Sequence record: NC_052661.1
Direction: 5' to 3' (one strand)
Length of the DNA stretch: 64,000 nucleotides
Source of the DNA: Escherichia phage ukendt
Below, one piece after another: positions 19,705-61,742 of the stretch. The notes beneath the pieces are model-generated. The model did no database searches. It was not told where the DNA came from and worked only from the letters and a program-made list of their open reading frames with translations. The position numbers were made by a program, and so were the translations under genes. The number at the start of each line of letters is the position of its first letter. Positions within the stretch are counted from its first letter, which is position 1.

Positions 19705-21078
19705 ATGGCAACTTTTCGTGAAAAGGTAGCAACCGTAACTTTACTGTATGGTGCTACATCAATTCGTGAAACCCAGTTCGATATTCCCCTGATCCTTACA
19801 GGTCAGAACGTAACTGGCGAAGCGATTCAATATTACTCTTCTTCCGATGCACTTTTGGAAGCAGGTTATGGATTAAATGATCCAGCGTATATTATGGCAG
19901 TCAAACTGTTTAACGGTTTGTTCCCACCAGATCAAGTTATGGTTGGTAAGCGTGAAGTTACAAACTTTACTCTAACTCCAATCGTAGAAGATAGTACAAC
20001 TTACACAATTACCATCAAAAATGGTACCAAGAAAAAAGAATTTAAATTCATTGCTGATGACACTGCAACTGCACAAGAGATTGTAGTTGGTCTGACTGAA
20101 ATGATCAATGCAGATCTTGTTTATGGCCCACTGTTTACAGTAGCTAACAACGGCGCTGCAATGACTTTCACTCCAGTAGAAGGTAAGTTTGGTTCTATTG
20201 ACAGCACAGGTTTCACTCAAGAAACTGTCTATGCTAATGCTATTACGGAAGATATCGCTGCTCTGCATGATATTGATAGTAGCTGGTTCTGGACCCTTTC
20301 AGATTCCCATGAAACAGAAGATGTTCTAGCTTTGGCTGCATGGGTAGAAGAGAATGATAAAGTTTACTTCTTCTCTAGCTCTGAACCTGGAATTAAAACG
20401 AAAGCAGAAGATAACGTTCTGGAACGACTGAATGACCTCGGTTATAATAACACTTGCTTTGCTTTGTGGATGACTGATGCAGATTCTGTATTCCCAGAAG
20501 CAGCAGTTGTTGGTGCAATCTGTTCTCGTCAACCTGGTTTAACTACTCTTCACGGTAAAACACTGGTAGGTGTAGAGATCGAGAAACTGGATCAGACTTC
20601 GGAAAACAATATTGTTCAACAGAACGGTAACATCTATCGTAAAGAGCATGGAACTCTGTTCTATCGTGATGGATTGATGGTTAGCGGTTTCTTTGTTGAC
20701 TATGTTGTTCATGCTTTGTGGTTTAAAGCTCGCACAGAAGAATCACTGTTTACACTGTTTAAACAACAGTCTATGCTGGGTGGTGGTGTTCGTGCTACTT
20801 CAAACGGTCTAGCTTTGATTCGACAAGCTGTTCTGGCTAACCCGATCCAAGTAGGTATCCTCAACGGTTCCATCGCTAATGAAGTTGTTACTTCTGAAGA
20901 GACTGGTTTGCGTGTCGATCTGAAACCTATTGTTTATATTCCTTCTCGTGCCGATATGACCGATGCGCAAATCAATGCTCGTCTGGTTGATGGGATGAAG
21001 ATTGAATATGTTTACGCTGGCTTCTTCCATTACGTTAAAGTTCAGGTCAACGTCCTGACTAACCGTACTGCAAACTAA
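19705..21078 (+). CDS. tail sheath protein (tentative)
   Basis: 457-aa ORF followed by a ~160-aa tube-sized ORF, a frameshifted chaperone and the tape measure; baseplate wedge-like gene further on supports a contractile tail. Confidence 0.5.
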   Translation: MATFREKVATVTLLYGATSIRETQFDIPLILTGQNVTGEAIQYYSSSDALLEAGYGLNDPAYIMAVKLFNGLFPPDQVMVGKREVTNFTLTPIVEDSTTYTITIKNGTKKKEFKFIADDTATAQEIVVGLTEMINADLVYGPLFTVANNGAAMTFTPVEGKFGSIDSTGFTQETVYANAITEDIAALHDIDSSWFWTLSDSHETEDVLALAAWVEENDKVYFFSSSEPGIKTKAEDNVLERLNDLGYNNTCFALWMTDADSVFPEAAVVGAICSRQPGLTTLHGKTLVGVEIEKLDQTSENNIVQQNGNIYRKEHGTLFYRDGLMVSGFFVDYVVHALWFKARTEESLFTLFKQQSMLGGGVRATSNGLALIRQAVLANPIQVGILNGSIANEVVTSEETGLRVDLKPIVYIPSRADMTDAQINARLVDGMKIEYVYAGFFHYVKVQVNVLTNRTAN

Positions 21079-21083
21079 TACGG

Positions 21084-21100
21084 CGGGGGTTAAGCCCCCG
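21084..21100 (+). terminator. GC-rich hairpin after the sheath gene (weak terminator or stability element)
   Basis: CGGGGG-TTAAG-CCCCCG; downstream T-tract is poor. Confidence 0.35.
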
Positions 21101-21124
21101 TTATCAAAATAAAGAGGATCTATA

Positions 21125-21604
21125 ATGGATAAAATGCTTACTGGCGTAATGGCCTACGACCCATCTCAAGTTATCCTTTCATTAGGTGGTTGGGAACCGT
21201 GGGGTTTTGCGGCTGATACTAAAATCGTTATTGCTAAATCTAACGATATTATCAACCCTTATTCAGGGACTGATGGGGACGTTTCATTAGCTTTGAGTCG
21301 TAACCGTTTGGGAACACTCACAATGTCTTTGCAACGCACATCTCCAGCTAACGAAGTACTTGCAACATATGCACAAACAATGTATTCTACTCGTCAAGTA
21401 GCATTCAGTGTTTACTTGGAAGACCCACGTGGCTATTACATTAGCACGATTGGATGGATTCAAAGTCAGCCTGAAGATACTATTGGCGAAATGATTACAG
21501 AGAACCAATGGGTTATTGGTCTTAAAGATGCAAGCCTTCTGCGTAATGAAGTTGGTGTAGGTTTGAGCACCCTTAACTCAATCTCTGCTCTGACAATTCA
21601 ATAA
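21125..21604 (+). CDS. tail tube protein (tentative)
   Basis: 159-aa ORF between sheath-like gene and chaperone; flanked by terminator hairpins. Confidence 0.5.
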   Translation: MDKMLTGVMAYDPSQVILSLGGWEPWGFAADTKIVIAKSNDIINPYSGTDGDVSLALSRNRLGTLTMSLQRTSPANEVLATYAQTMYSTRQVAFSVYLEDPRGYYISTIGWIQSQPEDTIGEMITENQWVIGLKDASLLRNEVGVGLSTLNSISALTIQ

Positions 21605-49971: not shown

Positions 49972-50364
49972 TTACATTAATTTTGCACAGAAAGAGCGGA
50001 GTCTTTCCATATCATCTTGCTCTAACAGGTATTTACCTTTACCTATTCCAACTCCAATTTCACCATTAGGAAAATGAACTATTTGCACTGGGAAACCTCC
50101 GAGTTTAATTGTGGCAGCTTTGCCTTCTTCGTCTATAACGTTTCGGATTGTATCTTGCAGTGAAATGAATTCTTTGTTTGTAACAGTGGTTTCAATTATT
50201 TCAGATGTTTCAACACGAGCGGTTAGCTTCTTGTCGCCACCTTGAATAACCAAAATTTGAAAATAAAAAGAGTTGTCAAGACCTACAACATTTTTCTCAA
50301 CTAGTGTTAAACTGGTATAATTTCCATAAACAGTTTCAACAGCTATCTTAGAACGTTCAGTCAT
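49972..50364 (-). CDS. hypothetical replication-module protein
   Basis: 130-aa ORF between SSB and the nucleotidyltransferase gene. Confidence 0.35.
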   Translation of the reverse strand: MTERSKIAVETVYGNYTSLTLVEKNVVGLDNSFYFQILVIQGGDKKLTARVETSEIIETTVTNKEFISLQDTIRNVIDEEGKAATIKLGGFPVQIVHFPNGEIGVGIGKGKYLLEQDDMERLRSFCAKLM

Positions 50365-50409
50365 TGAATGCTATCCTATCATAAAATGTTTAATATTGTC
50401 AAGCTTTAA

Positions 50410-51003
50410 TTACCAAGGAATATCATCTTCTTCCAATCTGGTATCTATTTGAGGTGGACGTGGAACCTTAACCTCTTTCACAAAACGAAGATATGGGAAA
50501 CGTGTAGCAATTTTAATAACATGTTTGGCATCTTCTCTAACATCTTTGTGCAAGAAGCAGATCCCTGTTTCCAAAGTTGTTTCAAAATCTTTAGAGTAAT
50601 AACAATCCTTTCCATCAAATGCAGCCTGGCAGATAGACAGATCAAACTCATTTAGAAAGGTTGTCATTACGCTTGGTTCCATAATCATAAGGTTGCAAAG
50701 CTGACCATCACGTTCAAACTCAAAAACGTGTTTAAGACCAGTAACACCCTCATAATTGTCAGAAGCCTCTTTGTTTCCTAGTTTACGAACATTAGTTCCC
50801 ATCAAAGCAGATGCAATCAATTCTTGTATTTGCTCTTCTGATCGATGTGCAGGAAGGGATGTGTAGAAATCCAGATCACGTCCAGCAATATCAAGAATAC
50901 GCCAATCACGAACAGCACCGCCAGCCAAGACAGAATTAGGATCAGCGATCTTTAATACGGTAAGAATCTCTTTGGCAATATTGATTTGTTTTGATTTAGT
51001 CAT
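50410..51003 (-). CDS. minimal nucleotidyltransferase (CCA-adding-enzyme head-like) with SSB-like acidic C-terminal tail
   Basis: LAGGAVRDWRILDIAGRDLDFY matches the GGxVRD...DxD signature of CCA-adding/poly(A) polymerase head domains; 197 aa; ends EEDDIPW. Confidence 0.55.
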   Translation of the reverse strand: MTKSKQINIAKEILTVLKIADPNSVLAGGAVRDWRILDIAGRDLDFYTSLPAHRSEEQIQELIASALMGTNVRKLGNKEASDNYEGVTGLKHVFEFERDGQLCNLMIMEPSVMTTFLNEFDLSICQAAFDGKDCYYSKDFETTLETGICFLHKDVREDAKHVIKIATRFPYLRFVKEVKVPRPPQIDTRLEEDDIPW

Positions 51004-51214
51004 TGATACGCTCCACAGTTACTTTTACAACATCGTCCATATTAATCTCATCCCCCAAGACCTCAATAACACCTTCCTCATAAAGTCGAGCACATTCTTC
51101 CCACACTTCAGCTTCCGTCATTCCACCTGCAATCTTATTTGCAAGACCTTTAATAACATCTTCATTTTGTTCATCAACAAGAATTGAAACATTAAAGCTC
51201 ACTAATTTACGCAT
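50996..51214 (-). CDS. hypothetical small acidic protein
   Basis: 72-aa ORF; start overlaps upstream gene. Confidence 0.3.
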   Translation of the reverse strand: MRKLVSFNVSILVDEQNEDVIKGLANKIAGGMTEAEVWEECARLYEEGVIEVLGDEINMDDVVKVTVERIND

Positions 51215-51385
51215 TGTTTTCTCCTTATACTTCTAAACGGAAAGTTTCTTTAGATACAAAATCGTATCCACCTTTTTCAAGCCAGTCATTGTAAACATCA
51301 TCGGCTTGAGACTCTATCATAAAATACCGAGTGGTAACTTCGTCTCCCACAATACGCACAATTTTATAGCAAATCATGATACCAT
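51212..51385 (-). CDS. possible 57-aa ORF missing from the track
   Basis: ATG at 51385..51383 preceded by GGAGGA; MGNGIMICYK...; below the 60-aa track cutoff. Confidence 0.25.
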
Positions 51386-51391
51386 TTCCCA

Positions 51392-51583
51392 TTAATCTTC
51401 CTCCAGATCAATTTCATTGTAACAATGTATGCAGAAACCATCATTGTGCATATGTTGTTCATAAGACATATCTTTACCACAAGACCAACAACGGATATCA
51501 CCATCGTCCCATTCACGTTCTTCTTCGCCTTCAAATTCATCTGGTAGGTAAGGCATACCAAGACAATCTAAATCGTAATGCAT
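51392..51583 (-). CDS. small acidic Cys/His-rich (zinc-binding-like) protein
   Basis: 63 aa with CWSCG...CIHC pattern; AGGAG RBS; directly downstream of the polymerase gene. Confidence 0.35.
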   Translation of the reverse strand: MHYDLDCLGMPYLPDEFEGEEEREWDDGDIRCWSCGKDMSYEQHMHNDGFCIHCYNEIDLEED

Positions 51584-51631
51584 ATCTCCTCCTATAAAGG
51601 GGCAGAAGCCCCTTATAAAACAATGAGTTAA

Positions 51632-54600
51632 CTAGTGACAGGACGCCCAGGAGTTACCCACATCATATCCGGCAGTAAGCTGAACATTAAGATTGTAAAA
51701 TTCTCCAGCCTTAGTAACAGCTAAAGCAGCAAGTTCACCTGCCCGACTATAGGCTGTAAACCATCCACCTTTGGGAGATTCATGAATGTTAGCCCAAATT
51801 TGCCCTGTCTCTTTTTCCTTATTATGCTTCCATTCTTCAACTTTAGCAAGGCATTCTTTATCAATTTTCTTTTGTTCTTCAGGATCGTCTACTTTCTTCC
51901 AACCTAATGATTCAGGTGAAAACCATTTAAATTCTACAAGGTTACGAGAAACTTCAAGCTGGGCTTCATCGTGATATGCAATCATTTGTTGCACGAAGTC
52001 TTTATTCTTCCAGTCATCTTTAAAGAAGTCAACACTTAGCCCTTCTTCTTCGATCATGTCGTCATAAATAACCATTGCACGTTTAGCACAGATAACCCCA
52101 CCACTTTGGAACAGAGAGTTAAGAATCGCGTGAGCAGAACGAGTAGGAACCTTACGACCGTCAATACCCAAAACATACTGTTTACCAGTCTTAACCCAGA
52201 AATCGTTTAAACGTTCTTTAAGACGCGCCAGTGGGAATGCAGCTTCCCAGAAAGCATCGAACACCAGTTGCCCTGTGTATTTATCGCTACCAATTGTTTT
52301 AGCAACCTTGTCTGCTTGAGCGCCGTACGTGCAGTTACCTGTCAACGTGATAAAACCATTCTGACGCATAACAAAAGATTCATTCTTGGTTGAGATACAG
52401 AATACATCTGTTACTCGTGAAAAAGCTTTTGTCAACCTCTGTCCTGAAATAGTTTGTCCGTTATTGATTGCCAACGTTAACATGCCATCTTTTTGAACAG
52501 AACCATACGCAATATTACCTGTCATATTGATAGCCAAAGAAACAGCGTCGCTAATCTTACCTTTCTTTTGACGGATAACAAGACTGCCGTTTGGACGCTT
52601 ATGACCATCTGCCATCCAGAATGCCTCTAAGAATGCTTCCAACACAGCTTGACCTTGATTAGCAATTAATGTAGACCAGTCCACTTCGTGCTTATTTTGA
52701 CCCACTTCAACGCCACATTTAGTCAAAAATTCCCTAAACTGACTCTTATTAGGACGTAATGAATGCATCGTTCCAGATACATACTCGTCAAATGTGAAGA
52801 TATCTCCCACAGCCTCACGTGCTTCTTCTAAGAATTTTTTCTCATCTTGATCTACCGTGACTGTAATACCCATTACTTTATTTCTGGCTTTGCCAGACCA
52901 CTTATAGTAGCCATCCGAAAGAAGCCAGCCTAAGAAACGACCTTCTTCCACTGTTAGAGTAGACACCACACCAGATCGCCCTGCTGCAATTATGTTTGAC
53001 TCCGAGTTTAAATCCTCTGTAGATCTACGCTCCACTTGCATATACTTAACATTGTTACCATCTGATCGCATAGTTTTTCTCTGTGCGTTAATCCACATAT
53101 GATCGTTAGTAACTTCTACTTTGAACCACTTGTTACCGAGAGAGACAACTTCTGCATCGTTATAGTCCCACAGCTTAAGAATAGGGGTATATTCGTAAAG
53201 AGCGGTGTGAGTATTATAAGATAAAACTTCATCCCCTACAAAAAGATCTTTACGTTTCTTCCAACCCGTTCTTGTTAACACTTCCGTATTATCTACAGGT
53301 ACACAACCGTATTTAACGCTCTTAGCAGGACCACGTTCAAACTTACGTCCAATAATATCAGTAATATGTTTTGCCATCATAGTATGCACATCGTTTGGTT
53401 TTTCTAACAGAAGTGCATTACAGTAAGCATGATCAGGATTATCATATCTCCACGTATAATGCGACTCAATCTTCGCCTCTAATGAATCAAAGTCATAACC
53501 AATCTGGAAGTATTTAGGAACCTCTACACCAAACAGGTTACGCATTTGCCATCCAAACAAAGAGGTAACACGAGGAATATTGGCTACAGACCTATGCTTC
53601 ATACGAGAGGTTGCTGCATCGCATGTAGCCGCTGGCGTAGGTATACGTCCATCTGCACGAACTGCTGCCAAGAAACCTTTGTTGTATTCTTGATCTTCTT
53701 CGTCTTCTTCCCAATCAGCACCACCGCCTAAAATAGAGTTCCTACGATGCTTATACGTTAAGTATTCTACAATCTGCGTAGCATAAGGAAACTTCTCACC
53801 CAAAGCTTGCAGGTTAGGACAAATTTCTTTTTCCTGACCTTTGGTAAAACATGGGTTAGTCAATACTTTAAGACCGCGACCTTTACCTTTTGCTATACGC
53901 TCTTGAATCTTCCTTTCCAAGGTTTCGGGTGTGCACTCCAGATGATCACAACGATCCTGACAAAAATTAGAAGATAGAGTTTGCTCAACGTAAGCTCGAA
54001 TACCTTTCTGAAGTTCTTCCTCACTCTTTTTAATTTTGGTGCCAGATTTAAGCGTCAAGTCTTTATCTTTGTATTCAGACGGTACCCAACCTAATCCTAC
54101 AAGCCAGTTTTTAATATGGGTTGTATCGTTCAATGTTGCAGGGATGTTAGGATCACATAGAGGCTCATCTGCTGCAACTGGCAGTTTCCACTCTTTCCCC
54201 AACATAACTAACCACCAATCTCCATCCCTCTCTTCCAAATGACCATCATGTTTCTTAGCAAAATTGATCATATGGTTAGTTGGCTCTAAGTTCTTTTTAA
54301 TTTGCAACTTAGGTGGAATAAAAGCCTTAAGATAACCTTTTGTTGCTGGTTTAGGTGGCAAAATAGGCTCAACGAGTAAACGAAGACGCTCCATTTCTGC
54401 ATCCAAAAAAGCAAGGTTCTCTTCTGCTTGCTTCATGTTAAAAGCAAACCCACGGTGTTCCTGGCGTGTAATAATGTCTGCTACACGTTGTTCAAGTTCA
54501 AATGGACCTTCCCATTTATCATAATCACCCCACTCTTCCATAAGGTAATTATATACGCTCGTATTGGCTTTGTTGTCATAGATACAGTAATAAAGCATAT

Positions 54601-55201
54601 CAGCAGCAAAAGTCTTAAATCGATCTTCTTCTGGAATCTCTTTACGGAAATCTATTTTTACATCACCTCCTGCCTTTCGAGAAAGTGCTGCCAAGCTATG
54701 TCCTGATTTGCCCTCAATCTTTCGATCTGGGTTTAACACTTTACTCAAAATCAAGGAGTCAATAAGTTTTACCTTATTTTTGCCCCACGTATTATATTTA
54801 ACACTGTAATCTAAGCCATAAAACAGTTTTGTAGCCAACCAGTCATAGTTGATACCGTTGTGAGCCACAGCCATTTCAACCAGATATTCAGGCTTATCTT
54901 TAAAATAACCTTCATGATTAATAAAGTCTGGGAAATCTTTTAGTTGAAAATGTGTGTAATCTTGCGCCACATACTCTTTAAGAACATATGTGTATTTGCC
55001 ATCTGACTCTTCATAAGGACGCCCATCAAAGATGTATTTAGGGCCATCGTGGAAAGCTACTATTTCTCCTGTTTCATGGTTCTCTAAGACAATACAGTGC
55101 ATTTGAAATGTGTCTTTGAGACGATAAGGACTAGCTAAATAATCGATAGTGTCATTATTCAACAAGCCGTTTGCTTCAATATCCCATGTAAACTTACTCA
55201 C
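51632..55201 (-). CDS. family A DNA polymerase with 3'-5' exonuclease domain, interrupted by an intein
   Basis: N-terminal DIEANGL exonuclease motif; motif B reconstituted as RGPAKSVKYG-CTYGAQADKV after removing residues 633-956; motif C YHDE; GTG start overlaps the stop of the upstream methyltransferase. Confidence 0.85.
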   Translation of the reverse strand: MSKFTWDIEANGLLNNDTIDYLASPYRLKDTFQMHCIVLENHETGEIVAFHDGPKYIFDGRPYEESDGKYTYVLKEYVAQDYTHFQLKDFPDFINHEGYFKDKPEYLVEMAVAHNGINYDWLATKLFYGLDYSVKYNTWGKNKVKLIDSLILSKVLNPDRKIEGKSGHSLAALSRKAGGDVKIDFRKEIPEEDRFKTFAADMLYYCIYDNKANTSVYNYLMEEWGDYDKWEGPFELEQRVADIITRQEHRGFAFNMKQAEENLAFLDAEMERLRLLVEPILPPKPATKGYLKAFIPPKLQIKKNLEPTNHMINFAKKHDGHLEERDGDWWLVMLGKEWKLPVAADEPLCDPNIPATLNDTTHIKNWLVGLGWVPSEYKDKDLTLKSGTKIKKSEEELQKGIRAYVEQTLSSNFCQDRCDHLECTPETLERKIQERIAKGKGRGLKVLTNPCFTKGQEKEICPNLQALGEKFPYATQIVEYLTYKHRRNSILGGGADWEEDEEDQEYNKGFLAAVRADGRIPTPAATCDAATSRMKHRSVANIPRVTSLFGWQMRNLFGVEVPKYFQIGYDFDSLEAKIESHYTWRYDNPDHAYCNALLLEKPNDVHTMMAKHITDIIGRKFERGPAKSVKYGCVPVDNTEVLTRTGWKKRKDLFVGDEVLSYNTHTALYEYTPILKLWDYNDAEVVSLGNKWFKVEVTNDHMWINAQRKTMRSDGNNVKYMQVERRSTEDLNSESNIIAAGRSGVVSTLTVEEGRFLGWLLSDGYYKWSGKARNKVMGITVTVDQDEKKFLEEAREAVGDIFTFDEYVSGTMHSLRPNKSQFREFLTKCGVEVGQNKHEVDWSTLIANQGQAVLEAFLEAFWMADGHKRPNGSLVIRQKKGKISDAVSLAINMTGNIAYGSVQKDGMLTLAINNGQTISGQRLTKAFSRVTDVFCISTKNESFVMRQNGFITLTGNCTYGAQADKVAKTIGSDKYTGQLVFDAFWEAAFPLARLKERLNDFWVKTGKQYVLGIDGRKVPTRSAHAILNSLFQSGGVICAKRAMVIYDDMIEEEGLSVDFFKDDWKNKDFVQQMIAYHDEAQLEVSRNLVEFKWFSPESLGWKKVDDPEEQKKIDKECLAKVEEWKHNKEKETGQIWANIHESPKGGWFTAYSRAGELAALAVTKAGEFYNLNVQLTAGYDVGNSWASCH
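52334..53305 (-). mobile_element. intein (324 aa) with LAGLIDADG homing-endonuclease domain, inserted in polymerase motif B
   Basis: Starts CVPVDNTEVLTRTGW, T-x-x-H block (VTNDH), two LAGLIDADG-like motifs (LGWLLSDGY, LEAFWMADGH), ends FITLTGN followed by Cys. Confidence 0.8.
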
Positions 55202-55995
55202 TATTCCTCCTTTCTAATGTTCTCCAGAACCCACTGAAGTTCTTTTAAACTTAAACTTCTTACTCCCGCAGTTTTACTAGCTTCCGCTTTAAGTAACGGG
55301 TAAGCTTCAATGATACGCGTTTTAAGATCAGAAGTCAAGGCTTTTAAAAAATAGGTAGATGCTTCAGATAAAGAATCTTCTTCTGTTAGCACTTTACCTG
55401 CGCTTGCTCCGGCTCTCCTAACAGCTATGTCGTAGTCTTTGCTGTTACCTAATACGAACAGTCGATTCTCTCCTAAAACAACGGGAGAACGCTTCTGGCT
55501 GCGTTTAATCCATATTTGGAATACACAAGGAACATCCCAAGGTTCTCCATGAAGAATAAAAGATCCTTTGGGACACTCTTCTTCGTGAAGAAGATGCATA
55601 TAAGGATTTAGTTTGTGTGCAAAAAAGATTTTTTGAAATGTGCGAGGTAAGATAAAACAAATACCACCTTCGTTATCCAGCATTTCAGCACAATGGTTAA
55701 AGAACTTAATGGCAAGACTAGCGTTTTTTCCGAATGGAGGATTACCAACAAAAGCCGTTACACTACCAACAGACTCAACAGATTGAGCTAAAAAATCTGC
55801 CTCAATACAATCTTCAAACTTAGGGTCAATATCAAAAGAAGTTATGTTTTTAAAACAAGAAGAGAAAGCTCCTTCTCCCGCAGATGGTTCTACGTAGTTA
55901 GCTTCCTCTCCAAAAATTTCTTTGATCTTATCACATAAGAACCCCGCATAAGCGGGGTTAGTGTAATATTGATCAAGTGTGTTCAACTTGCTCAA
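55201..55995 (-). CDS. amino-methyltransferase (probable DNA N6-adenine or N4-cytosine methyltransferase)
   Basis: AdoMet-binding EPSAGEGAF precedes catalytic VGNPPFG (NPPF), the gamma-class motif order; 264 aa. Confidence 0.7.
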   Translation of the reverse strand: MSKLNTLDQYYTNPAYAGFLCDKIKEIFGEEANYVEPSAGEGAFSSCFKNITSFDIDPKFEDCIEADFLAQSVESVGSVTAFVGNPPFGKNASLAIKFFNHCAEMLDNEGGICFILPRTFQKIFFAHKLNPYMHLLHEEECPKGSFILHGEPWDVPCVFQIWIKRSQKRSPVVLGENRLFVLGNSKDYDIAVRRAGASAGKVLTEEDSLSEASTYFLKALTSDLKTRIIEAYPLLKAEASKTAGVRSLSLKELQWVLENIRKEE

Positions 55996-56004
55996 TAGTC
56001 CTCC

Positions 56005-56436
56005 TTAGTTGTTAGCGAACTCAATAGTGAGGTCAACTTTACCATCATCAGAAATAACCATGTTTTTGGTATTTTTAAAGATGATATCTACTTTACCTTC
56101 ACTTACACGACAGAATGCAACACCATCTGCAACTTTATCGATATAATATTTGTAAGAAAGAATACCCACTTTACTACGACCAGCACCTTTTGTGAAAGAA
56201 GGGCTTACATCGAAACGAAAACCTTTAGAAGAAACAACACGGTAAGAACGTCCAGTTGGAAGATGTTCAATAACAGAGACATTGTTCTCAACAACTTTTA
56301 CAGCAAACTCTTCAGGATGATCCTCAACAATCATGTGTGGGATGGCAAATGCCAACGCTTGTTTGTGTTTAATAACACCAGCACCCAGAGCACCAGCAGC
56401 TTTAACTTTTGCATTCAGATCGATTGTCATACGCAT
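56005..56436 (-). CDS. hypothetical protein with its own promoter
   Basis: 143-aa ORF; GGAG RBS; promoter TTGACA/TATACT immediately upstream. Confidence 0.4.
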   Translation of the reverse strand: MRMTIDLNAKVKAAGALGAGVIKHKQALAFAIPHMIVEDHPEEFAVKVVENNVSVIEHLPTGRSYRVVSSKGFRFDVSPSFTKGAGRSKVGILSYKYYIDKVADGVAFCRVSEGKVDIIFKNTKNMVISDDGKVDLTIEFANN

Positions 56437-56469
56437 TTTTACTTCTCCTCTTGTTTGGTTGATGAGACA

Positions 56470-56499
56470 AGTATAAGTCCCTTCCGCAAAGTTGTCAAC
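56470..56499 (-). promoter_or_regulatory. sigma70-like promoter on minus strand (TTGACA, 18 nt, TATACT)
   Basis: Reverse complement of 56494..56499 is TTGACA and of 56470..56475 is TATACT; lies between a terminator hairpin and the 56436 start. Confidence 0.55.
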
Positions 56500-56514
56500 A
56501 GGTATTTTTAATAA

Positions 56515-56530
56515 AAGGGCCGAAGCCCTT
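56515..56530 (-). terminator. terminator-like hairpin at the end of the primase-helicase gene
   Basis: AAGGGC-TTCG-GCCCTT on the minus strand overlapping the stop codon, followed by TTATTAAAAA. Confidence 0.45.
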
Positions 56531-58307
56531 AGTAGTTGCTATCCGTAGGTAAGTTAGCAGGGTTGTTAAAATACTGCTCTTTGTCGTGAAGAGTTGCAGT
56601 TCTAATGTCATAGTAAAACTGCCCTGCTGGACCAGTCTCCGAGAACTCACGGTTTTTTAGGATAAAGCAATGAGTTGTATTACGTTCTACAGGATCTTCA
56701 GCAGCCTTATCTCGTTCCAAAGCCAAGGTAATACCAGCACCTTTAGCCAAGAAACTACTACCCATTGCATCGTCCTCTGTTAAGTGCTCATTGCCACCAT
56801 TAGCTGACTTCTTAACGTGTGAGATGACGATAATAGTTATAGCATACTCTTTCATGATTCGCTTCAACCATGTTGCTAACTCTTCCTGGGCTTGAACATC
56901 CATACCAGAAAGCAAATCAGAATAAGGGTCGATAACAAGAATTGTTACTCCAAAATAGATGATCATCTCCAAAACTTTTTCTTTGATAGACTCCACATCT
57001 GCTCCACGATCATCACACACGTAAAAACGTGGTGATCCATCTTCTCTTTCGTAAAAATCTAGGATTTTTTCTTTATTCTCTTCCAAGATTTGAAATTTCT
57101 CTTCCGGTGTTTTCCTGTGTAGAGGAATGTGTAGGAAAGAGGATAACAGGTTACGAGAATACTTTTTATAAGTCGCTTCCAAGGACAGAATACCTAGGGT
57201 ATGTTCTGGGTGTGCAACAATAATATGTTTGGTGATCTCGTTCACCATCAAAGTTTTACCGATACTGGTCTTTGCCAGGATGACTGTAATCTCTTCCTCT
57301 ACTAAACCACCACCCAACATGTTTGCAGCAACACGCATAAAAGGAGGCAAGGTAATCATCTTGGATTCCAAGCATTCCAATGCAGCTTCATACAAGACAT
57401 TAGAAGCATAAACACCTGCTGGGGTGTATAGACGAGCACTCCAAAAAGCTTTTACGAAATCTTTTGCACGGCCTTCTTCCAGATACTGATTGGCATCCTT
57501 AAGATCCATCTGCATACGGTAGACTTTGTTACGAGGCAGCACCTTAACAATATTTTCAAATGCCTCGTTACCTGCTTTGTCGTTATCCATGCAAACAATA
57601 ATCTTCTTAAATTTTTCAAAGAAAGGATATTGTGCCTGAACTTGTTTATACATACTGGTTTCACCAGTTGTGCCACTTACTACGGCTGGAAGCTCATATT
57701 TACTGTCCAAGTTTTCAGATAGCATTTGATAAGCTGCCAGAGCATCGTGTTCACCACCTGTAATTACAACAGTATGAGAACGATCTGCAAAACGAATTTG
57801 TCCAAAAAGATCTACATCTTTACCTACTTGACCAATAGGTTTACTGAAATCTTTAGGATGAATACGACGCTTAAAACCAACCAATTCTTTACCGATGGTA
57901 GTTGGATATAAACAACTTTCTACTACCATCTGATCCCCTTCCTGACGGTATTCATAACGAACACCATAGAAAGATGAAACTTTTTCTTTAATGCCTCGAT
58001 AACCACGTGGGTTGGTTGATGTTTCTTGAACAATTTTACGATGAATCTGTTTATTAAATTCCGAACCCACAATCTCCTCCTCTTCTTCTAAAACTTCACC
58101 ATTTTCTCGTAACCATTCTACGCTAGGAATAGTGTATTCACACGCAAAGCACTTAGCACCTTTATGCTCTCCATTAGAATCTAATCCATAAACCATCAGG
58201 TTATTACGAGAGCGATCCTTGCCATTTTTCATGCAGCGCGGACAACCTGTATGTCCTTCCTTGCTAAGATCAACATCAAATCCATATTTAGTTATAATGT
58301 GCGACAC
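56529..58307 (-). CDS. bifunctional primase-helicase
   Basis: N-terminal Cys4 zinc ribbon (CPRC...CFAC), TOPRIM-like VVITGGEHDALAAYQ, helicase Walker A AKTSIGKT and Walker B ILVIDPYSD. Confidence 0.8.
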   Translation of the reverse strand: MSHIITKYGFDVDLSKEGHTGCPRCMKNGKDRSRNNLMVYGLDSNGEHKGAKCFACEYTIPSVEWLRENGEVLEEEEEIVGSEFNKQIHRKIVQETSTNPRGYRGIKEKVSSFYGVRYEYRQEGDQMVVESCLYPTTIGKELVGFKRRIHPKDFSKPIGQVGKDVDLFGQIRFADRSHTVVITGGEHDALAAYQMLSENLDSKYELPAVVSGTTGETSMYKQVQAQYPFFEKFKKIIVCMDNDKAGNEAFENIVKVLPRNKVYRMQMDLKDANQYLEEGRAKDFVKAFWSARLYTPAGVYASNVLYEAALECLESKMITLPPFMRVAANMLGGGLVEEEITVILAKTSIGKTLMVNEITKHIIVAHPEHTLGILSLEATYKKYSRNLLSSFLHIPLHRKTPEEKFQILEENKEKILDFYEREDGSPRFYVCDDRGADVESIKEKVLEMIIYFGVTILVIDPYSDLLSGMDVQAQEELATWLKRIMKEYAITIIVISHVKKSANGGNEHLTEDDAMGSSFLAKGAGITLALERDKAAEDPVERNTTHCFILKNREFSETGPAGQFYYDIRTATLHDKEQYFNNPANLPTDSNY

Positions 58308-58319
58308 TTTGTTCTCCTG

Positions 58320-58598
58320 TTAAAATGGTTCGTTAGTCTCCATCATATATTCTGCTTCTAGTTCTTCCATGTGCTTTCTAAATTGGAAAGCAATTTCTGC
58401 TACAGTTACATTTAAATCTTTTTCAAAAACTTCTGTAGATCCTTCATAAAAACGAATACCGTCAATTAAAAGCCCTCCGTGGTAATCCCAATCGCTTTCA
58501 CGAGAAAGTGGATTAGGTTCTTCATAATAGTAATCCACCTCCACGACCAAGGCTTTCCCGTTACGAGTGGTGTATTCAAAATCAAAAGTGTTAATCAT
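58320..58598 (-). CDS. hypothetical small protein with acidic-aromatic C-terminus
   Basis: 92 aa ending EAEYMMETNEPF. Confidence 0.35.
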   Translation of the reverse strand: MINTFDFEYTTRNGKALVVEVDYYYEEPNPLSRESDWDYHGGLLIDGIRFYEGSTEVFEKDLNVTVAEIAFQFRKHMEELEAEYMMETNEPF

Positions 58599-59542
58599 TA
58601 TAGCTCCTCAAATAAAAGTCTACGACGCTCATTCAACACATCAATGTGATAATGAGTCCTGACATACTTAGCTAATGCTAATCCTTTCTCCATGCAAACA
58701 TCGGGAGCACTTAATAAGTATTCCGTAATATCTTTCCACTCGGAAGGTGTTTCAGCAAAGAATAACAAATCTTTAAACTCTTGTGTATGATAATTCTCAC
58801 GAGGAGAGCAGATTAAAGGTAAACCCTTAGCACCTGCCTCAAGAATTTTAAGATTGCTTTTTGCATTATTAAACACGTTATCGATCAATGGTGCAAGACT
58901 GATTTGATGACCATCGTAAGATTCCATGTAGTTGGCATATGGTCTTACACCTTCATAAACACAAGTTGGTGCTACATTTTCCCTGATTAAAGACCATTCA
59001 CGACTACTTAAAACTTCAGAATCCCTACGAAAACCACATATTGTAAGATCTTTACCAAAATCGGGCAAGATAGCCAAATCTTGTTTATGTGTTTCACTTC
59101 CAGCCCAGACTAATGGAGTTTTGGAGTAGCGATCACGGGTCAACACAAATTGACCTTCATCGTAAGGAAGTCCATTAGGGATTATGTGCACATTATCATT
59201 GTATTGTGAAAGTTCAACTTGCAAGGCAGGTGTCGTAGTTGTAACAAGATCACTGTGCTCTAAAAACCATTTTAAATGTTCACGAATACCTGATTCAAAA
59301 ATACCTTCTAACATGTGTCCTTTTGGAATAACTAAAGAGTCATCCAAATCCATAACCATTTTAAAGCCCAGGTTTTTAAGGGCTAAAAAGCCCTCTTTAC
59401 CTTTTGTTGGCACTCCGTTAAAAACGAAAACGTTGTGTTTAGGTTGTGAAGAGAACTGCCTTGAGTAAGGCAGCACTACCCTATGGAAATCGCAGACACT
59501 ATAATTGATTCCGTTACGATTGTCAAGAATTATTTGTCCCAT
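58598..59542 (-). CDS. glycosyltransferase (GT-B-like), paralogue 1
   Basis: 314 aa; TPLVWAGSETH and KSNLKILEAGAKGLPLICS resemble the donor-binding C-terminal half of GT-B enzymes; paralogous to next gene. Confidence 0.55.
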   Translation of the reverse strand: MGQIILDNRNGINYSVCDFHRVVLPYSRQFSSQPKHNVFVFNGVPTKGKEGFLALKNLGFKMVMDLDDSLVIPKGHMLEGIFESGIREHLKWFLEHSDLVTTTTPALQVELSQYNDNVHIIPNGLPYDEGQFVLTRDRYSKTPLVWAGSETHKQDLAILPDFGKDLTICGFRRDSEVLSSREWSLIRENVAPTCVYEGVRPYANYMESYDGHQISLAPLIDNVFNNAKSNLKILEAGAKGLPLICSPRENYHTQEFKDLLFFAETPSEWKDITEYLLSAPDVCMEKGLALAKYVRTHYHIDVLNERRRLLFEEL

Positions 59543-59549
59543 ACTTCAC

Positions 59550-60497
59550 CTACAAACTTTCAATAACCTGGCGTCGCAATTCGTTTGCATCTGCCAGATT
59601 ATAATGTGTTCGAACATGTTCCGCTAAGAACAAGCCGCGATCTTCCCGATAGTTCGGATTGCGAAGAAGCTTAACAATTTCGTAATGCCATTCAGCTTTA
59701 TTCTCTGCGTAAGCAACAGCGCGAGCATCTACAGGGTTAAAATAAGGTAATACCTTAGAACAAACAATCGGAATACCTTTTGCCCCAGCTTCAAGGATTT
59801 TGAGATTACTTTTACAATTATTAAAATCATTGTCTACCAAAGGAGCTATAGCAATAGCATGACTTTCGTAAACACTCATGTAATTATCTAAATCTTTTAC
59901 AGCAGCTTTATATTTGGCGTTTGGTAAATTTCTACGGATCTTAATCCACTCTTGCCCTGTGATACTCTGCGATGCTTCATATCCTGCAATAGTAAGAAGT
60001 TCATCATCGAAAGTATTAGAGACTAGTCGTAAATCGGGTTCGTGACTAGCACCGCCAGCCCATACAACAGGGGTACCGGATGAACGATCATTTGACAAAG
60101 TGAATTGTCCGCTATCAAAAGGAAGTGCATTTCGGATCACAACAACATTCCTATTTAAGTGACGGATTTTATATGCCAAATATTCCGTAGTCACAATGAC
60201 CACATCGGCAAGCTTAACCATAGCTACAATAGCATGAGTGTTTGACTCATATAAACTTGCTAAATAATGTTCTGGATTAAGTTGGTAGAAATCATCTAAA
60301 TCTACAACAATCTTAACACCTTGACGTTTCAGGGACAGAACATATTCTGCCCCTTTAGAATGAATACGGTTAAACACGACAACATCTTTCTTAGGCTGAA
60401 AATTATTGTTGTTAAATGGTATAACAATACGATGATAATCACAACCACTGTGAGGTTTTGCATCAATTTTCAGTTTAGTCCATTTTTTATTTGACAT
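59550..60497 (-). CDS. glycosyltransferase (GT-B-like), paralogue 2 (start refined from track start 60536)
   Basis: TPVVWAGGASH and KSNLKILEAGAKGIPIVCS; internal ATG 60497 has an AGGAGG RBS and aligns with the paralogue N-terminus. Confidence 0.55.
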   Translation of the reverse strand: MSNKKWTKLKIDAKPHSGCDYHRIVIPFNNNNFQPKKDVVVFNRIHSKGAEYVLSLKRQGVKIVVDLDDFYQLNPEHYLASLYESNTHAIVAMVKLADVVIVTTEYLAYKIRHLNRNVVVIRNALPFDSGQFTLSNDRSSGTPVVWAGGASHEPDLRLVSNTFDDELLTIAGYEASQSITGQEWIKIRRNLPNAKYKAAVKDLDNYMSVYESHAIAIAPLVDNDFNNCKSNLKILEAGAKGIPIVCSKVLPYFNPVDARAVAYAENKAEWHYEIVKLLRNPNYREDRGLFLAEHVRTHYNLADANELRRQVIESL

Positions 60498-61170
60498 GTG
60501 CCAGTGCCTCCTCATAAGAAATTCGGATTTTCCCATTTTTAATATCTTCTAAAGACGCTTTATATTCTTCCCAGTTAATGCCAATAGCAGCTTCTTTCTC
60601 TTCTTTTGTCAGATTAGCAAAAGGCATAGGATTGTTTCCAAAAACATCGTCTGGGTGGATATAAGCCATGATACGAAGTGGACAAGGTATTGCCTGAATG
60701 CCCTGATTCAAACCAGCAGCTTTCAAACGGTGTACCCATTCAGCATCTTCAAAACCATAGCCGTGAGTGTAAGGGCGGAAATAACCCATCTTCTCAATAA
60801 CGGCACGAGAATACATTGCAAATTGACACATTGCAAGTTCCCAGAGAATAACTTCTCCTTTACTCCCAACAACTTTATCTTTGAAATACTCCGGCATACC
60901 AAAGAAATCCCATCCTCCAGAGACAGCTTGATCTACAAAATATGTTTCCCATCCCTCCATGATTGGGTAGCAATCGTCGTCAAAAATAAACCAATAATCA
61001 TAACCTTCTTCATAAAACTGGTGCATAAGTTCATTCCTGGCGTAAGCTACACCTTTACGATCTGGATCGTTGAATACTCGAAAATCTGCATGTGGATCTG
61101 TTACAAGGTAGTCTTTAAGTGGACGGACACCTACAGTGATAACACCCACTCCGATTTTAATATTTTCCAT
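60487..61170 (-). CDS. glycosyltransferase (GT-A-like, DxD motif)
   Basis: 227 aa; YDYWFIFDDDCYP acidic DxD-type motif. Confidence 0.5.
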   Translation of the reverse strand: MENIKIGVGVITVGVRPLKDYLVTDPHADFRVFNDPDRKGVAYARNELMHQFYEEGYDYWFIFDDDCYPIMEGWETYFVDQAVSGGWDFFGMPEYFKDKVVGSKGEVILWELAMCQFAMYSRAVIEKMGYFRPYTHGYGFEDAEWVHRLKAAGLNQGIQAIPCPLRIMAYIHPDDVFGNNPMPFANLTKEEKEAAIGINWEEYKASLEDIKNGKIRISYEEALAHVK

Positions 61171-61178
61171 TTTCTCTC

Positions 61179-61742
61179 CTAAATAGTTTTACTGTGATCG
61201 TGACAGTGTAATAAATGATGTATAGACCGTTGAGGATTTGTTTGACCTAATCTGTAAATGTGAAACAGATACATTCCCCGCATCAATCCTAACCTCTTTC
61301 CTTTTTCATGTAAAGTGCGAGAGAAAATTAAGTCGAATTGGATAGATTTTTCTTCGAAAGGAATTTCATTCCACAATGATTTTCTAAAAAGCAAAAAGAA
61401 ACCTGCCAGAGGTGTTCCGAAAGGAACTTCTTCAACACTCACTTTATGATATTCTCTTGCAATCTTAGCATATTTTATATGGTTTAGAATGTCTGGATCA
61501 TCGTTAATTTGGTTAGAGAAAAGCTGATAACCACTACCTAACCTGTTACAAGTTGCACCTATTACATCAAAAGGCGGGTTTGACATAACAAGCTCTTCAA
61601 GCATAGATGGTTGATCAGGCAGGAGGAACATTGTATCGGTATCTCTTAAACACACCCAACTATCATCTGGAAGAACGGCAATAGCTTCATTGATAGCCTT
61701 GCCGATATTTCCTGTCAGATAGGGAGTAATATAATAAATCAT
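61179..61742 (-). CDS. putative glycosyltransferase (small GT-A-like)
   Basis: 187 aa; VCLRDTDTMF acidic motif; first gene of the four-gene block. Confidence 0.4.
   Translation of the reverse strand: MIYYITPYLTGNIGKAINEAIAVLPDDSWVCLRDTDTMFLLPDQPSMLEELVMSNPPFDVIGATCNRLGSGYQLFSNQINDDPDILNHIKYAKIAREYHKVSVEEVPFGTPLAGFFLLFRKSLWNEIPFEEKSIQFDLIFSRTLHEKGKRLGLMRGMYLFHIYRLGQTNPQRSIHHLLHCHDHSKTI

What the first reader, a model, noticed from the sequence alone, without database searches (positions are those of the whole stretch)
55201..55995. Orphan amino-methyltransferase translationally coupled to the DNA polymerase gene
The methyltransferase has motif I (EPSAGEGAF) before motif IV (NPPF), a gamma-class arrangement, with no restriction partner visible. 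Its TAG stop overlaps the polymerase GTG start by one nucleotide, so methyltransferase and replicase are co-expressed. The target site is unknown; together with the glycosyltransferase block it suggests layered DNA modification as anti-restriction.
Basis: partly seen in the sequence, partly recalled or inferred. Interest (0 to 1): 0.5.

Follow-up and report, generated by a model that had tools for sequence, protein, structure and literature searches.

The report
Phage methylase with hidden restriction-like partner
The gene is a real DNA adenine methylase of a phAPEC8-like E. coli phage, but it is not a loner: it sits in one operon with a small restriction-enzyme-like gene, and several indirect lines of evidence point to GTAC as the sequence the pair acts on.

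Summary
The window comes from a Phapecoctavirus (98.5% identical to phage nepoznato). The sequence facts hold. There is a 264-aa ORF at 55201..55995 (-). Motif I (EPSAGEGAF, residues 36-44) precedes motif IV (NPPF, 85-88). The TAG stop shares one base with the polymerase GTG start.

The gene has been annotated "putative DNA N6-adenine methyltransferase" in GenBank since rV5. Fold, a PADLOC match and bacterial gene context all support a gamma-class DNA adenine methyltransferase.

"Orphan" is doubtful. The 143-aa ORF nine bases upstream (56005..56436) folds as a PD-(D/E)XK nuclease. It is homologous (hhalign 94%) to type II restriction enzymes that partner this methyltransferase family in bacteria. 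It lies next to the methyltransferase in 8 of 9 sampled phage lineages. Its canonical E-x-K motif is not conserved, so nuclease activity is unproven.

GTAC is the likely target:
- some bacterial relatives pair with PabI-type (GTAC) enzymes;
- GTAC is the most depleted palindrome in every phage contig sampled at 8 kb or more that carries the nuclease-like gene except rV5, where it ranks second (window 66 observed, 204 expected);
- it is absent (0 observed, 90 expected) from a relative with the nuclease-like gene and no methyltransferase in the 20 kb held;
- it is the most over-represented palindrome in two jumbo phages that carry only the methyltransferase.

The polymerase overlap is genus-specific. 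Layered DNA modification as anti-restriction is not supported.

The parts
55201..55995 (-). Gamma-class N6-adenine DNA methyltransferase (264 aa; PHROG 5172). Motif I is at residues 36-44, motif IV NPPF at 85-88, and the C-terminal ~100 aa form the target-recognition domain.
   Evidence: Bacterial members lie in R-M operons.
56005..56436 (-). 143-aa PD-(D/E)XK restriction-endonuclease-like partner gene (PHROG 9938). Its stop lies 9 nt before the methyltransferase start. It shares a conserved P-S-x3-G-x-G-R loop with bacterial REases. The canonical E-x-K motif is not conserved.
56470..56498 (-). Sigma-70-type promoter-like site TTGACA-17-TATACT (11 of 12) in the primase/REase-like intergenic region. 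It is the probable start of the REase-like / methyltransferase / polymerase operon.
   Evidence: best match in the 8-kb scan, although the total number of matches is no more than chance; sequence.
56508..56530 (-). GC-rich hairpin (AAGGGCTTCGGCCCTT) followed by a T-rich tract, directly after the primase stop. It may be a terminator separating primase from the downstream operon.
   Evidence: Direct reading of the sequence printed. The terminator scan did not flag it.
55204..55211 (-). Shine-Dalgarno AAGGAGGA for the DNA polymerase, inside the last codons of the methyltransferase gene, 4 nt before the GTG that overlaps the TAG stop.
51632..55201 (-). Family A DNA polymerase (1189 aa, GTG start), the downstream gene of the operon. 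It carries an intein-like insertion at residues 633-957.

Best explanation
ORF 55201..55995 encodes a compact gamma-class N6-adenine DNA methyltransferase. Together with the upstream 143-aa ORF (56005..56436) it forms a conserved module derived from a type II restriction-modification system. One promoter transcribes the REase-like gene, the methyltransferase and the DNA polymerase, so replicating phage DNA is methylated as it is made. The predicted target is GTAC (GTm6AC). The partner protein keeps the restriction-endonuclease fold and the loop it shares with bacterial REases of this system. I infer that it still acts on unmethylated GTAC, by cleavage or at least by harmful binding. That would explain why genomes carrying it are purged of GTAC. 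Shown here: the methyltransferase family and fold, the partner's fold and homology, the gene linkage, and the GTAC statistics. Inferred: the DNA substrate, GTAC specificity, and any activity of the partner.

For: Bacterial context. Full-length family members sit directly upstream of at least three recognisable REase families and one unknown partner family: PDLC03460-type (13-14 loci), PDLC03550-type (5 loci), R.PabI PF09522 (2 loci) and an unknown 345-370-aa partner (3 loci).

Linkage. The small gene is adjacent to the methyltransferase in the window, 05F01/L096, rV5 (order reversed), L100, L101/102, L111/112, L113 and L114. Most pairs have overlapping stop and start codons.

GTAC. PabI-family partners are GTAC enzymes (PMC4615327, PMC2588503). 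Pooled REase-linked bacterial loci have GTAC O/E 0.60, the most depleted palindrome, against 0.87 in unlinked loci (Mann-Whitney p = 0.001). O/E values in phage contigs: window 0.32, 05F01 0.46, L096 0.40, rV5 0.55, L100 0.11, L113 0.11. GTAC ranks 1 or 2 of 16 palindromes in each. The lineage with the REase-like gene only has 0 GTAC against 90 expected, and GTAC is the only one of 256 tetramers absent. The jumbo phages with the methyltransferase only have O/E 1.42 and 1.58, rank 16 of 16. E. coli K-12 has 0.90.

Operon. A promoter-like site lies upstream of the REase-like ORF, the gaps between genes are very small, and each gene has a Shine-Dalgarno sequence.
Against: - No member of this roughly 265-aa methyltransferase family with an experimentally determined specificity was identified.
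- No methylome or digest data for these phages were found.
- In the phage partner family the residues that hhalign aligns with the REase catalytic Glu(helix)...Asp...Glu-x-Lys/Arg are Pro33, roughly Glu57/Asp58 and Lys/Arg66-Val-x. The canonical E-x-K is therefore absent. The protein may be nuclease-dead.
- PADLOC REase profiles do not hit the phage protein directly.
- The GTAC comparison rests on few, partly related lineages and on contig fragments. Absence of the methyltransferase from the whole genome of the REase-like-only lineage is not shown.
- Relatives lacking both genes are still mildly GTAC-depleted (0.65-0.73).
Confidence: 0.6

Rival explanations
1. It is a true solitary protective methyltransferase. 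The enzyme methylates phage DNA (GTAC or another site) only to evade host restriction. The upstream 143-aa gene is a decayed or re-purposed relic of an ancestral REase with no restriction-like role. GTAC depletion then reflects host GTAC systems, not the phage's own protein.
For: The canonical E-x-K motif is lost in the partner family. Solitary methyltransferases are the rule in phages, and complete R-M systems are 'practically none' (PMC4176335). Relatives lacking both genes are also somewhat GTAC-depleted (0.65-0.73). GenBank annotators call the gene an orphan N6-adenine methyltransferase.
Against: The partner gene is under strong conservation: 99-100% identical in 58 Phapecoctavirus records, and S80, K83, G84 and R87 are invariant over 21 diverged sequences. 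It stays glued to the methyltransferase across very distant phages and through gene-order changes. Phages with the methyltransferase only are not depleted in GTAC but enriched. The lineage with the REase-like gene and no methyltransferase in the 20 kb held has zero GTAC. So depletion tracks the partner gene, not the lack of protection.
Confidence: 0.25
2. It is a mobile homing cassette. The 143-aa PD-(D/E)XK protein is a free-standing homing or site-specific endonuclease (I-Ssp6803I-like) that spreads the two-gene insert between phage genomes. The methyltransferase is cargo or self-protection.
Against: Profile homology is to REases that partner the same methyltransferase family in bacteria, not to homing enzymes. 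A homing endonuclease with a long target would not explain genome-wide loss of a 4-bp palindrome. R-M systems are themselves mobile, so the patchy distribution does not discriminate between the two readings.
Confidence: 0.1
3. It is an RNA (rRNA or tRNA) N6-adenine methyltransferase of the METTL5/Ta1320/TrmN type rather than a DNA methyltransferase.
Against: These matches cover only the roughly 150-residue Rossmann core. The protein has an extra conserved C-terminal domain. DNA methyltransferases align over 218-240 residues. The PADLOC type II MTase profile matches at 8e-35 nearly full length. Bacterial members are translationally coupled to REase genes. GTAC composition signals follow the gene.
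Confidence: 0.03

Closest known systems
M.TaqI / M.BseCI / CamA-type gamma-class N6-adenine DNA methyltransferases
   Different: This protein is much smaller (264 aa against 421-580). Sequence identity is only 13-19%. The C-terminal domain is a compact unit of about 100 residues with its own conserved motifs (RRVG..AGK, TAGVRS). It falls below the Pfam Eco57I threshold (16.7 bits against 25.3) and has no NCBIfam hit.
GTAC-specific m6A systems: PabI/HpyAXII (restriction glycosylase + M.PabI homologue) and chlorella-virus CviQI
   Same: Two bacterial full-length members of this methyltransferase family are coupled to R.PabI-family genes in the bacterial M-then-R order (PMC4615327). GTAC is the composition outlier wherever the family occurs in phages. 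CviQI is a precedent for a lytic virus carrying a GTAC R-M system (PMC3287169; my own knowledge for the virus biology).
   Different: The phage partner is a PD-(D/E)XK-fold protein, not a PabI half-pipe glycosylase. M.HpyAXII is 331 aa, and an H. pylori-phage relative shares only residues 4-166 with this family. GTAC specificity is predicted here, not measured.
PADLOC REase_II PDLC03550-type small type II restriction endonucleases (about 157-170 aa)
   Same: The profile-profile match to the phage 143-aa family is 94%. The two share size, the alpha-beta-beta-beta-alpha-beta core and the P-S-x3-G-x-G-R loop. Both are adjacent to the same methyltransferase family.
   Different: The bacterial proteins keep Glu(helix), Asp and Glu-x-Lys/Arg. 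The phage family has Pro33, Glu57/Asp58 and Lys66-Val-x at the aligned positions. PADLOC does not recognise the phage protein.
Solitary phage methyltransferases (e.g. T1/T2/T4 Dam, the Drexlerviridae enzymes mentioned in the BASEL study)
   Same: Phage-encoded, expressed during replication, and presumed to mark progeny DNA.
   Different: Those have no REase-like neighbour. Here a conserved partner gene is present, and site depletion tracks that partner.

Membership tests
Gamma-class N6-adenine DNA methyltransferase | AdoMet-binding motif I (FxGxG-like) | tested here: met
   EPSAGEGAF at residues 36-44. E36, P37, A39, G40 and G42 are invariant in 58 homologues.
Gamma-class N6-adenine DNA methyltransferase | Catalytic motif IV (D/N)PP(Y/F/W) | tested here: met
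   NPPF at residues 85-88. N85, P86, P87 and G89 are invariant.
Gamma-class N6-adenine DNA methyltransferase | Linear order: AdoMet region, then catalytic region, then TRD at the C-terminus | tested here: met
   Motifs I and IV are 41 residues apart. The Rossmann core ends near residue 165. The C-terminal ~100 aa are replaced by an unrelated domain in an H. pylori-phage homologue that shares residues 4-166, as expected of a TRD.
Gamma-class N6-adenine DNA methyltransferase | Fold like solved members (M.TaqI and others) | tested here: met
Gamma-class N6-adenine DNA methyltransferase | Methylates adenine N6 in a specific DNA sequence | not testable with these tools
   Inferred from R-M operon context in bacteria and from GTAC composition signals. 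No biochemical or methylome data were found.
Pfam Eco57I (PF07669) N6 methylase domain | Score at or above the gathering threshold | tested here: not met
   16.7 bits against the 25.3 cut-off, E 0.008, and only residues 90-132 are matched.
Type II restriction-modification system | Methyltransferase and REase genes adjacent and co-oriented | tested here: met
   A REase-fold and REase-homologous gene lies 9 nt upstream in the same operon. The pair is conserved in 8 of 9 lineages.
Type II restriction-modification system | REase partner carries an intact PD-(D/E)XK catalytic motif | tested here: inconclusive
   The fold is present. E38 (E/D in 16 of 21 sequences), D58 (D12/H6/N2) and K/R66 (20 of 21) are conserved. 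However, the Glu-x-Lys of the homologous bacterial REases aligns with Lys66-Val-x.
Type II restriction-modification system | Cleavage of unmethylated target, blocked by the cognate methylation | not testable with these tools
   Only indirect evidence: GTAC is absent (0 observed, 90 expected) in the lineage with the REase-like gene and no methyltransferase in the 20 kb held. It is depleted where both genes occur and enriched where only the methyltransferase occurs.
Solitary (orphan) methyltransferase, defined as no REase within 10 genes (Oliveira et al. 2014, PMC4176335) | No REase homologue in the neighbourhood | tested here: not met
   The adjacent gene is an REase homologue by profile-profile comparison and by fold. 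It is missed by standard REase profiles, which is why the gene looks orphan.
METTL5/Ta1320-type rRNA m6A methyltransferase | Single-domain protein of about 200 aa, similar over its whole length, in an RNA-modification context | tested here: not met
   The match is limited to about 105-153 core residues. An extra conserved C-terminal domain is present, and the genomic context is R-M or phage replication.
GTAC-specific m6A methyltransferases (M.PabI-homologue / M.CviQI functional group) | Cognate partner of the R.PabI family or demonstrated GTm6AC | tested here: inconclusive
   Met for two bacterial family members (L032, L076; PF09522 at 8e-16). For the phage enzyme there is only shared full-length homology (34-38% identity) and the composition evidence.

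The most novel reading that the evidence does not exclude
Virulent rV5-like and phAPEC8-like coliphages, and distant marine relatives, carry a working GTAC-specific restriction-modification pair whose nuclease has a non-canonical active site. The phage would use it offensively, to shred host DNA or to exclude co-infecting phages. It would protect itself by replication-coupled GTm6AC methylation plus purging of GTAC, and one lineage has dropped the methyltransferase and removed every GTAC instead.
Probability: 0.3. Interest if true: 0.75.

Novelty: new variant of a known kind. Interest (0 to 1): 0.55.

Why it matters
Phage methyltransferases are routinely filed as orphan anti-restriction genes, and surveys report practically no complete R-M systems in virulent phages. 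Here a widespread pair has escaped notice because the nuclease-like half (PHROG 9938, "unknown function") is invisible to standard REase profiles. The pair occurs in Vequintavirus, Phapecoctavirus, Klebsiella relatives and marine phages.

If the partner is active, common therapeutic and biocontrol coliphages carry an offensive restriction system. That bears on host takeover, on competition between phages in cocktails, and on how genome composition should be read: GTAC loss would be self-inflicted rather than imposed by the host.

Even if the partner is inactive, the work gives a concrete, cheap-to-test specificity prediction (GTm6AC) for a family of more than 2,400 uncharacterised methyltransferases. 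It also offers a natural series for studying how methylation and site avoidance trade off: both genes, the REase-like gene only, the methyltransferase only, and neither.

Tried and rejected
- NCBIfam gave no hit and Pfam only a sub-threshold Eco57I match. PF26055 is listed for about a third of the homologues but is not in the local Pfam copy, so its name remains unknown.
- A PD-ExK guess in the 143-aa protein (D104...E114-G-K116) was rejected, because these residues vary among close homologues.
- PADLOC scans of the phage neighbours found no REase profile. HMMs of the four bacterial partner families gave only non-significant hits in the window and in rV5. Homology emerged only at the profile-profile level.
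- PDB sequence searches with two bacterial partner REases found nothing.
- The idea that methyltransferase presence relaxes GTAC avoidance does not fit. Siblings lacking both genes are less depleted (0.65-0.73) than phages with both (0.11-0.55). Depletion tracks the nuclease-like gene instead.
- The idea that the polymerase overlap is a conserved coupling was rejected.
- The 112-aa ORF that replaces the methyltransferase in the L093/L103 lineage is not a methyltransferase remnant. It resembles the 105-aa ORF at the same place in KP13-26.
- Literature searches for methylome or digest data on these phages found nothing.
- The H. pylori-phage homologue is not PabI-linked. It has a different TRD and a different partner.

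Full report
**What the window is.** Megablast of 50000-60000 gives 98.5% identity over its full length to Escherichia phage nepoznato. It gives 97-98% to some 60 other Phapecoctavirus genomes (phAPEC8-like virulent myoviruses, Stephanstirmvirinae). RefSeq annotates the same two genes with the same 1-nt overlap and calls the upstream one "putative DNA N6-adenine methyltransferase". rV5 ORF100, a 54%-identical homologue, has carried that name since the rV5 record DQ832317. As an annotation the finding is therefore already known. I found no experimental work on the gene.

**Checking the observation.** The ORF lies on the minus strand at 55201..55995 and encodes 264 aa. It starts at TTG behind AAGGAGGA, and the N-terminus MSK..LDQYYT is conserved in the family. 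EPSAGEGAF (residues 36-44) precedes NPPF (85-88). The TAG stop and the polymerase GTG share base 55201 (TAGTG). A second AAGGAGGA sits 4 nt upstream of the GTG. All of this is correct. The statement that no restriction partner is visible does not survive (see below).

**Is it a DNA methyltransferase?**
- Curated libraries are nearly silent. Pfam gives Eco57I at 16.7 bits, below the 25.3 cut-off. NCBIfam gives nothing. PHROG 5172 is "unknown function".
- The PADLOC type II MTase profile PDLC03255 matches at 8e-35 over almost its whole length.
- The family is large: 2463 proteins at E <= 1e-3. It is tightly conserved, including a C-terminal region with its own invariant residues (R194, G196, G200, G244, S247).
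- The AF2 model is confident (pLDDT 93.8).
- Genome context is the stronger argument. The scan of one genome per species found 295 relatives and kept 79 loci. In at least 23 of those, a full-length family member is followed by a recognisable partner gene, usually with overlapping stop and start codons. The partners are a PADLOC REase_II PDLC03460-type gene (13-14 loci), a PDLC03550-type gene (5 loci; all 7 aligned members match at up to 1e-14), an R.PabI-family gene (2 loci; PF09522 at 8e-16) and an unassigned 345-370-aa gene (3 loci).
- An H. pylori-phage homologue shares only residues 4-166. It has a different C-terminal domain and a different PD..EIK partner. This marks the last ~100 residues as the exchangeable target-recognition domain, that is, gamma architecture.
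- I conclude that this is a gamma-class DNA adenine methyltransferase (about 0.85). The RNA-methyltransferase reading is about 0.03.

**The neighbour.** The 143-aa ORF at 56005..56436 ends 9 nt before the methyltransferase start.
- It is homologous to rV5 ORF101, which lies immediately downstream of the rV5 methyltransferase in a quite different neighbourhood. BLASTP gives 2e-13, and both are PHROG 9938.
- An HMMER scan of 1.84 billion representatives found only 24 relatives.
- Every lineage I could look up has the methyltransferase next door: 05F01/L096, L100, L101/102 (marine TARA), L111/112, L113 and L114. These methyltransferases are 38-59% identical to the query.
- The one exception is the P0125 lineage (L093-L095, L103-L110). 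It has primase, the REase-like gene, a 112-aa ORF and the polymerase, with no methyltransferase within 20 kb.
- Sibling genera lack both genes at the primase-polymerase junction (outra, KP13-26).
- The AF2 model (pLDDT 90.7) has an alpha-beta-beta-beta-alpha-beta core.
- The family HMM hits two bacterial PDLC03550-type REases directly, at 9e-6 and 0.0035.
- hhalign between the two family alignments gives 94% probability and E 1.5e-7 over 99 columns. Both share an identical-spacing P-S-x3-G-x-G-R loop.
- So the phage gene is a homologue of restriction enzymes that serve this very methyltransferase family in bacteria.
- Caveat: the bacterial Glu(helix)...Asp...Glu-x-Lys/Arg aligns with Pro33, roughly Glu57/Asp58 and Lys/Arg66-Val-x. 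E38, D58 and K66 are conserved, but the canonical E-x-K is not. Activity is open.

**Target site.** Four indirect lines converge on GTAC.
1. PabI-family partners are GTAC enzymes (PMC4615327, PMC2588503).
2. Across the 21 REase-linked bacterial loci, GTAC is the most depleted 4-nt palindrome (171 observed, 285 expected). The median O/E is 0.54, against 0.85 in 57 unlinked loci (p = 0.001).
3. In every phage contig carrying the REase-like gene that is long enough to rank (8 kb or more), GTAC ranks first or second among the depleted palindromes. O/E values: window 66/204 = 0.32, 05F01 0.46, L096 0.40, rV5 0.55, L100 0.11, L113 0.11. In the lineage with the REase-like gene only it is 0 observed against 90 expected, and GTAC is the only one of 256 tetramers missing.
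4. In two jumbo phages that carry the methyltransferase without the partner (ph0011, fHe-Yen9-04), GTAC is the most over-represented palindrome (1.42 and 1.58).

E. coli K-12 has 0.90, and siblings with neither gene have 0.65-0.73. GTAC is thus an extreme outlier wherever the family occurs in phages, and the direction follows the nuclease-like gene. That is what a self-carried GTAC-directed activity would produce. The sample is small and not phylogenetically independent.

**Expression.** A GC hairpin with a T tract follows the primase stop. Next comes the best sigma-70-like match of the 8-kb region (TTGACA-17-TATACT, 56498..56470). After that come the REase-like gene, a 9-nt gap containing a Shine-Dalgarno sequence, the methyltransferase, and the 1-nt overlap with its own Shine-Dalgarno sequence leading into the polymerase. 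Co-expression with the replicase is plausible. The overlap itself is a Phapecoctavirus peculiarity: 05F01/L096 have a 36-nt gap, and the rV5, L100 and L113 copies sit among nucleotide-metabolism genes.

**Layered modification.**
- The four glycosyltransferase ORFs (58598..61742) have only weak, sub-threshold resemblance to DNA glycosyltransferases: PF20691 at E 0.0013 and phrog_842 at 5.5e-6.
- The genome avoids many restriction sites.
- The BASEL study found Vequintavirinae and relatives "exceptionally susceptible" to RM systems.
- Nothing here supports a broadly protective modification.

**Verdict.** The sequence facts are right, and the methyltransferase call is right and already in the databases. 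The "orphan" label is probably wrong. The region is best read as a type II R-M-derived pair, an REase-fold gene plus a gamma m6A methyltransferase, embedded in the replication operon, with GTAC as the predicted target. Whether the nuclease-like half still cuts is the open and interesting question.

Noticed in passing
window 52331..53305 (-), inside the DNA polymerase gene 51632..55201: An intein-like insertion of about 325 aa occupies polymerase residues 633-957. It begins C|VPVDNTEVL after KYG and ends ..LTGN|CTYG. Intein-free homologues (outra, L103) align on both sides of it. Many close relatives cover only 90% of window 50000-60000, in two pieces, so the element is present in only some Phapecoctavirus genomes.
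   Followed up: partly
whole window (64 kb): There is strong avoidance of palindromic restriction sites beyond GTAC: CTGCAG 0 observed against 12.9 expected, CCATGG 0/9.3, GGATCC 0/8.5, GCATGC 0/5.6, GGCC 32/65 and CCGG 31/55.
   Followed up: partly
L103 and L104 (metagenome contigs SRR29074720_9575 and ERZ28638501 scaffold_316), whole loci: A Stephanstirmvirinae-like phage has the REase-like gene but no methyltransferase in 20 kb. It contains no GTAC at all (0 observed against 90 and 81 expected), and GTAC is the only absent tetranucleotide.
   Followed up: partly
L116 (Escherichia phage ph0011, 319458-348217) and L117 (Yersinia phage fHe-Yen9-04, 27782-52585): Two jumbo phages carry a full-length homologue of the methyltransferase without the PHROG 9938 partner. 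In both, GTAC is the most over-represented 4-nt palindrome (O/E 1.42 and 1.58). This is unexplained. The 144-aa gene just downstream of the Yersinia-phage methyltransferase (g081) matches none of the partner families.
   Followed up: partly
window 58598..61742 (-): Four consecutive glycosyltransferase ORFs: two paralogous GT-B enzymes (phrog_7162), one GT-A-like protein with weak TET-associated and beta-glucosyl-HMC-alpha-glucosyltransferase similarity, and one phrog_14179 protein. Their substrate (DNA, virion protein or polysaccharide) is unknown.
   Followed up: no
window 56470..56530 (-): A hairpin with a T tract lies directly after the primase stop. It is followed by a near-consensus sigma-70 promoter (TTGACA-17-TATACT). 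This suggests that the REase-like gene, the methyltransferase and the polymerase form a separate transcription unit read by host RNA polymerase.
   Followed up: partly
GenBank records MG065650, MG065666, MG065653 and others ('Campylobacter phage' B15, A12a, C14 ...): Records labelled as Campylobacter jejuni phages carry genes 97-100% identical to those of E. coli Phapecoctavirus and Vequintavirus. The host or organism labels look wrong.
   Followed up: no
Protein-representative hits P0128 (4054 aa), P0141 (2373 aa), P0136 and P0146 (about 690 aa): A stretch of about 50 residues from the PHROG 9938 family (query positions ~23-85) recurs 5-10 times in a few very large proteins. What these proteins are was not examined.
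   Followed up: no
L097 20465..21192 (Klebsiella phage 05F01): The methyltransferase is annotated there as a 34-aa ORF plus a 200-aa 'DNA methyltransferase'. tblastn, however, aligns residues 1-258 in one piece at 20419..21180. The start seems mis-annotated rather than the gene broken.
   Followed up: partly
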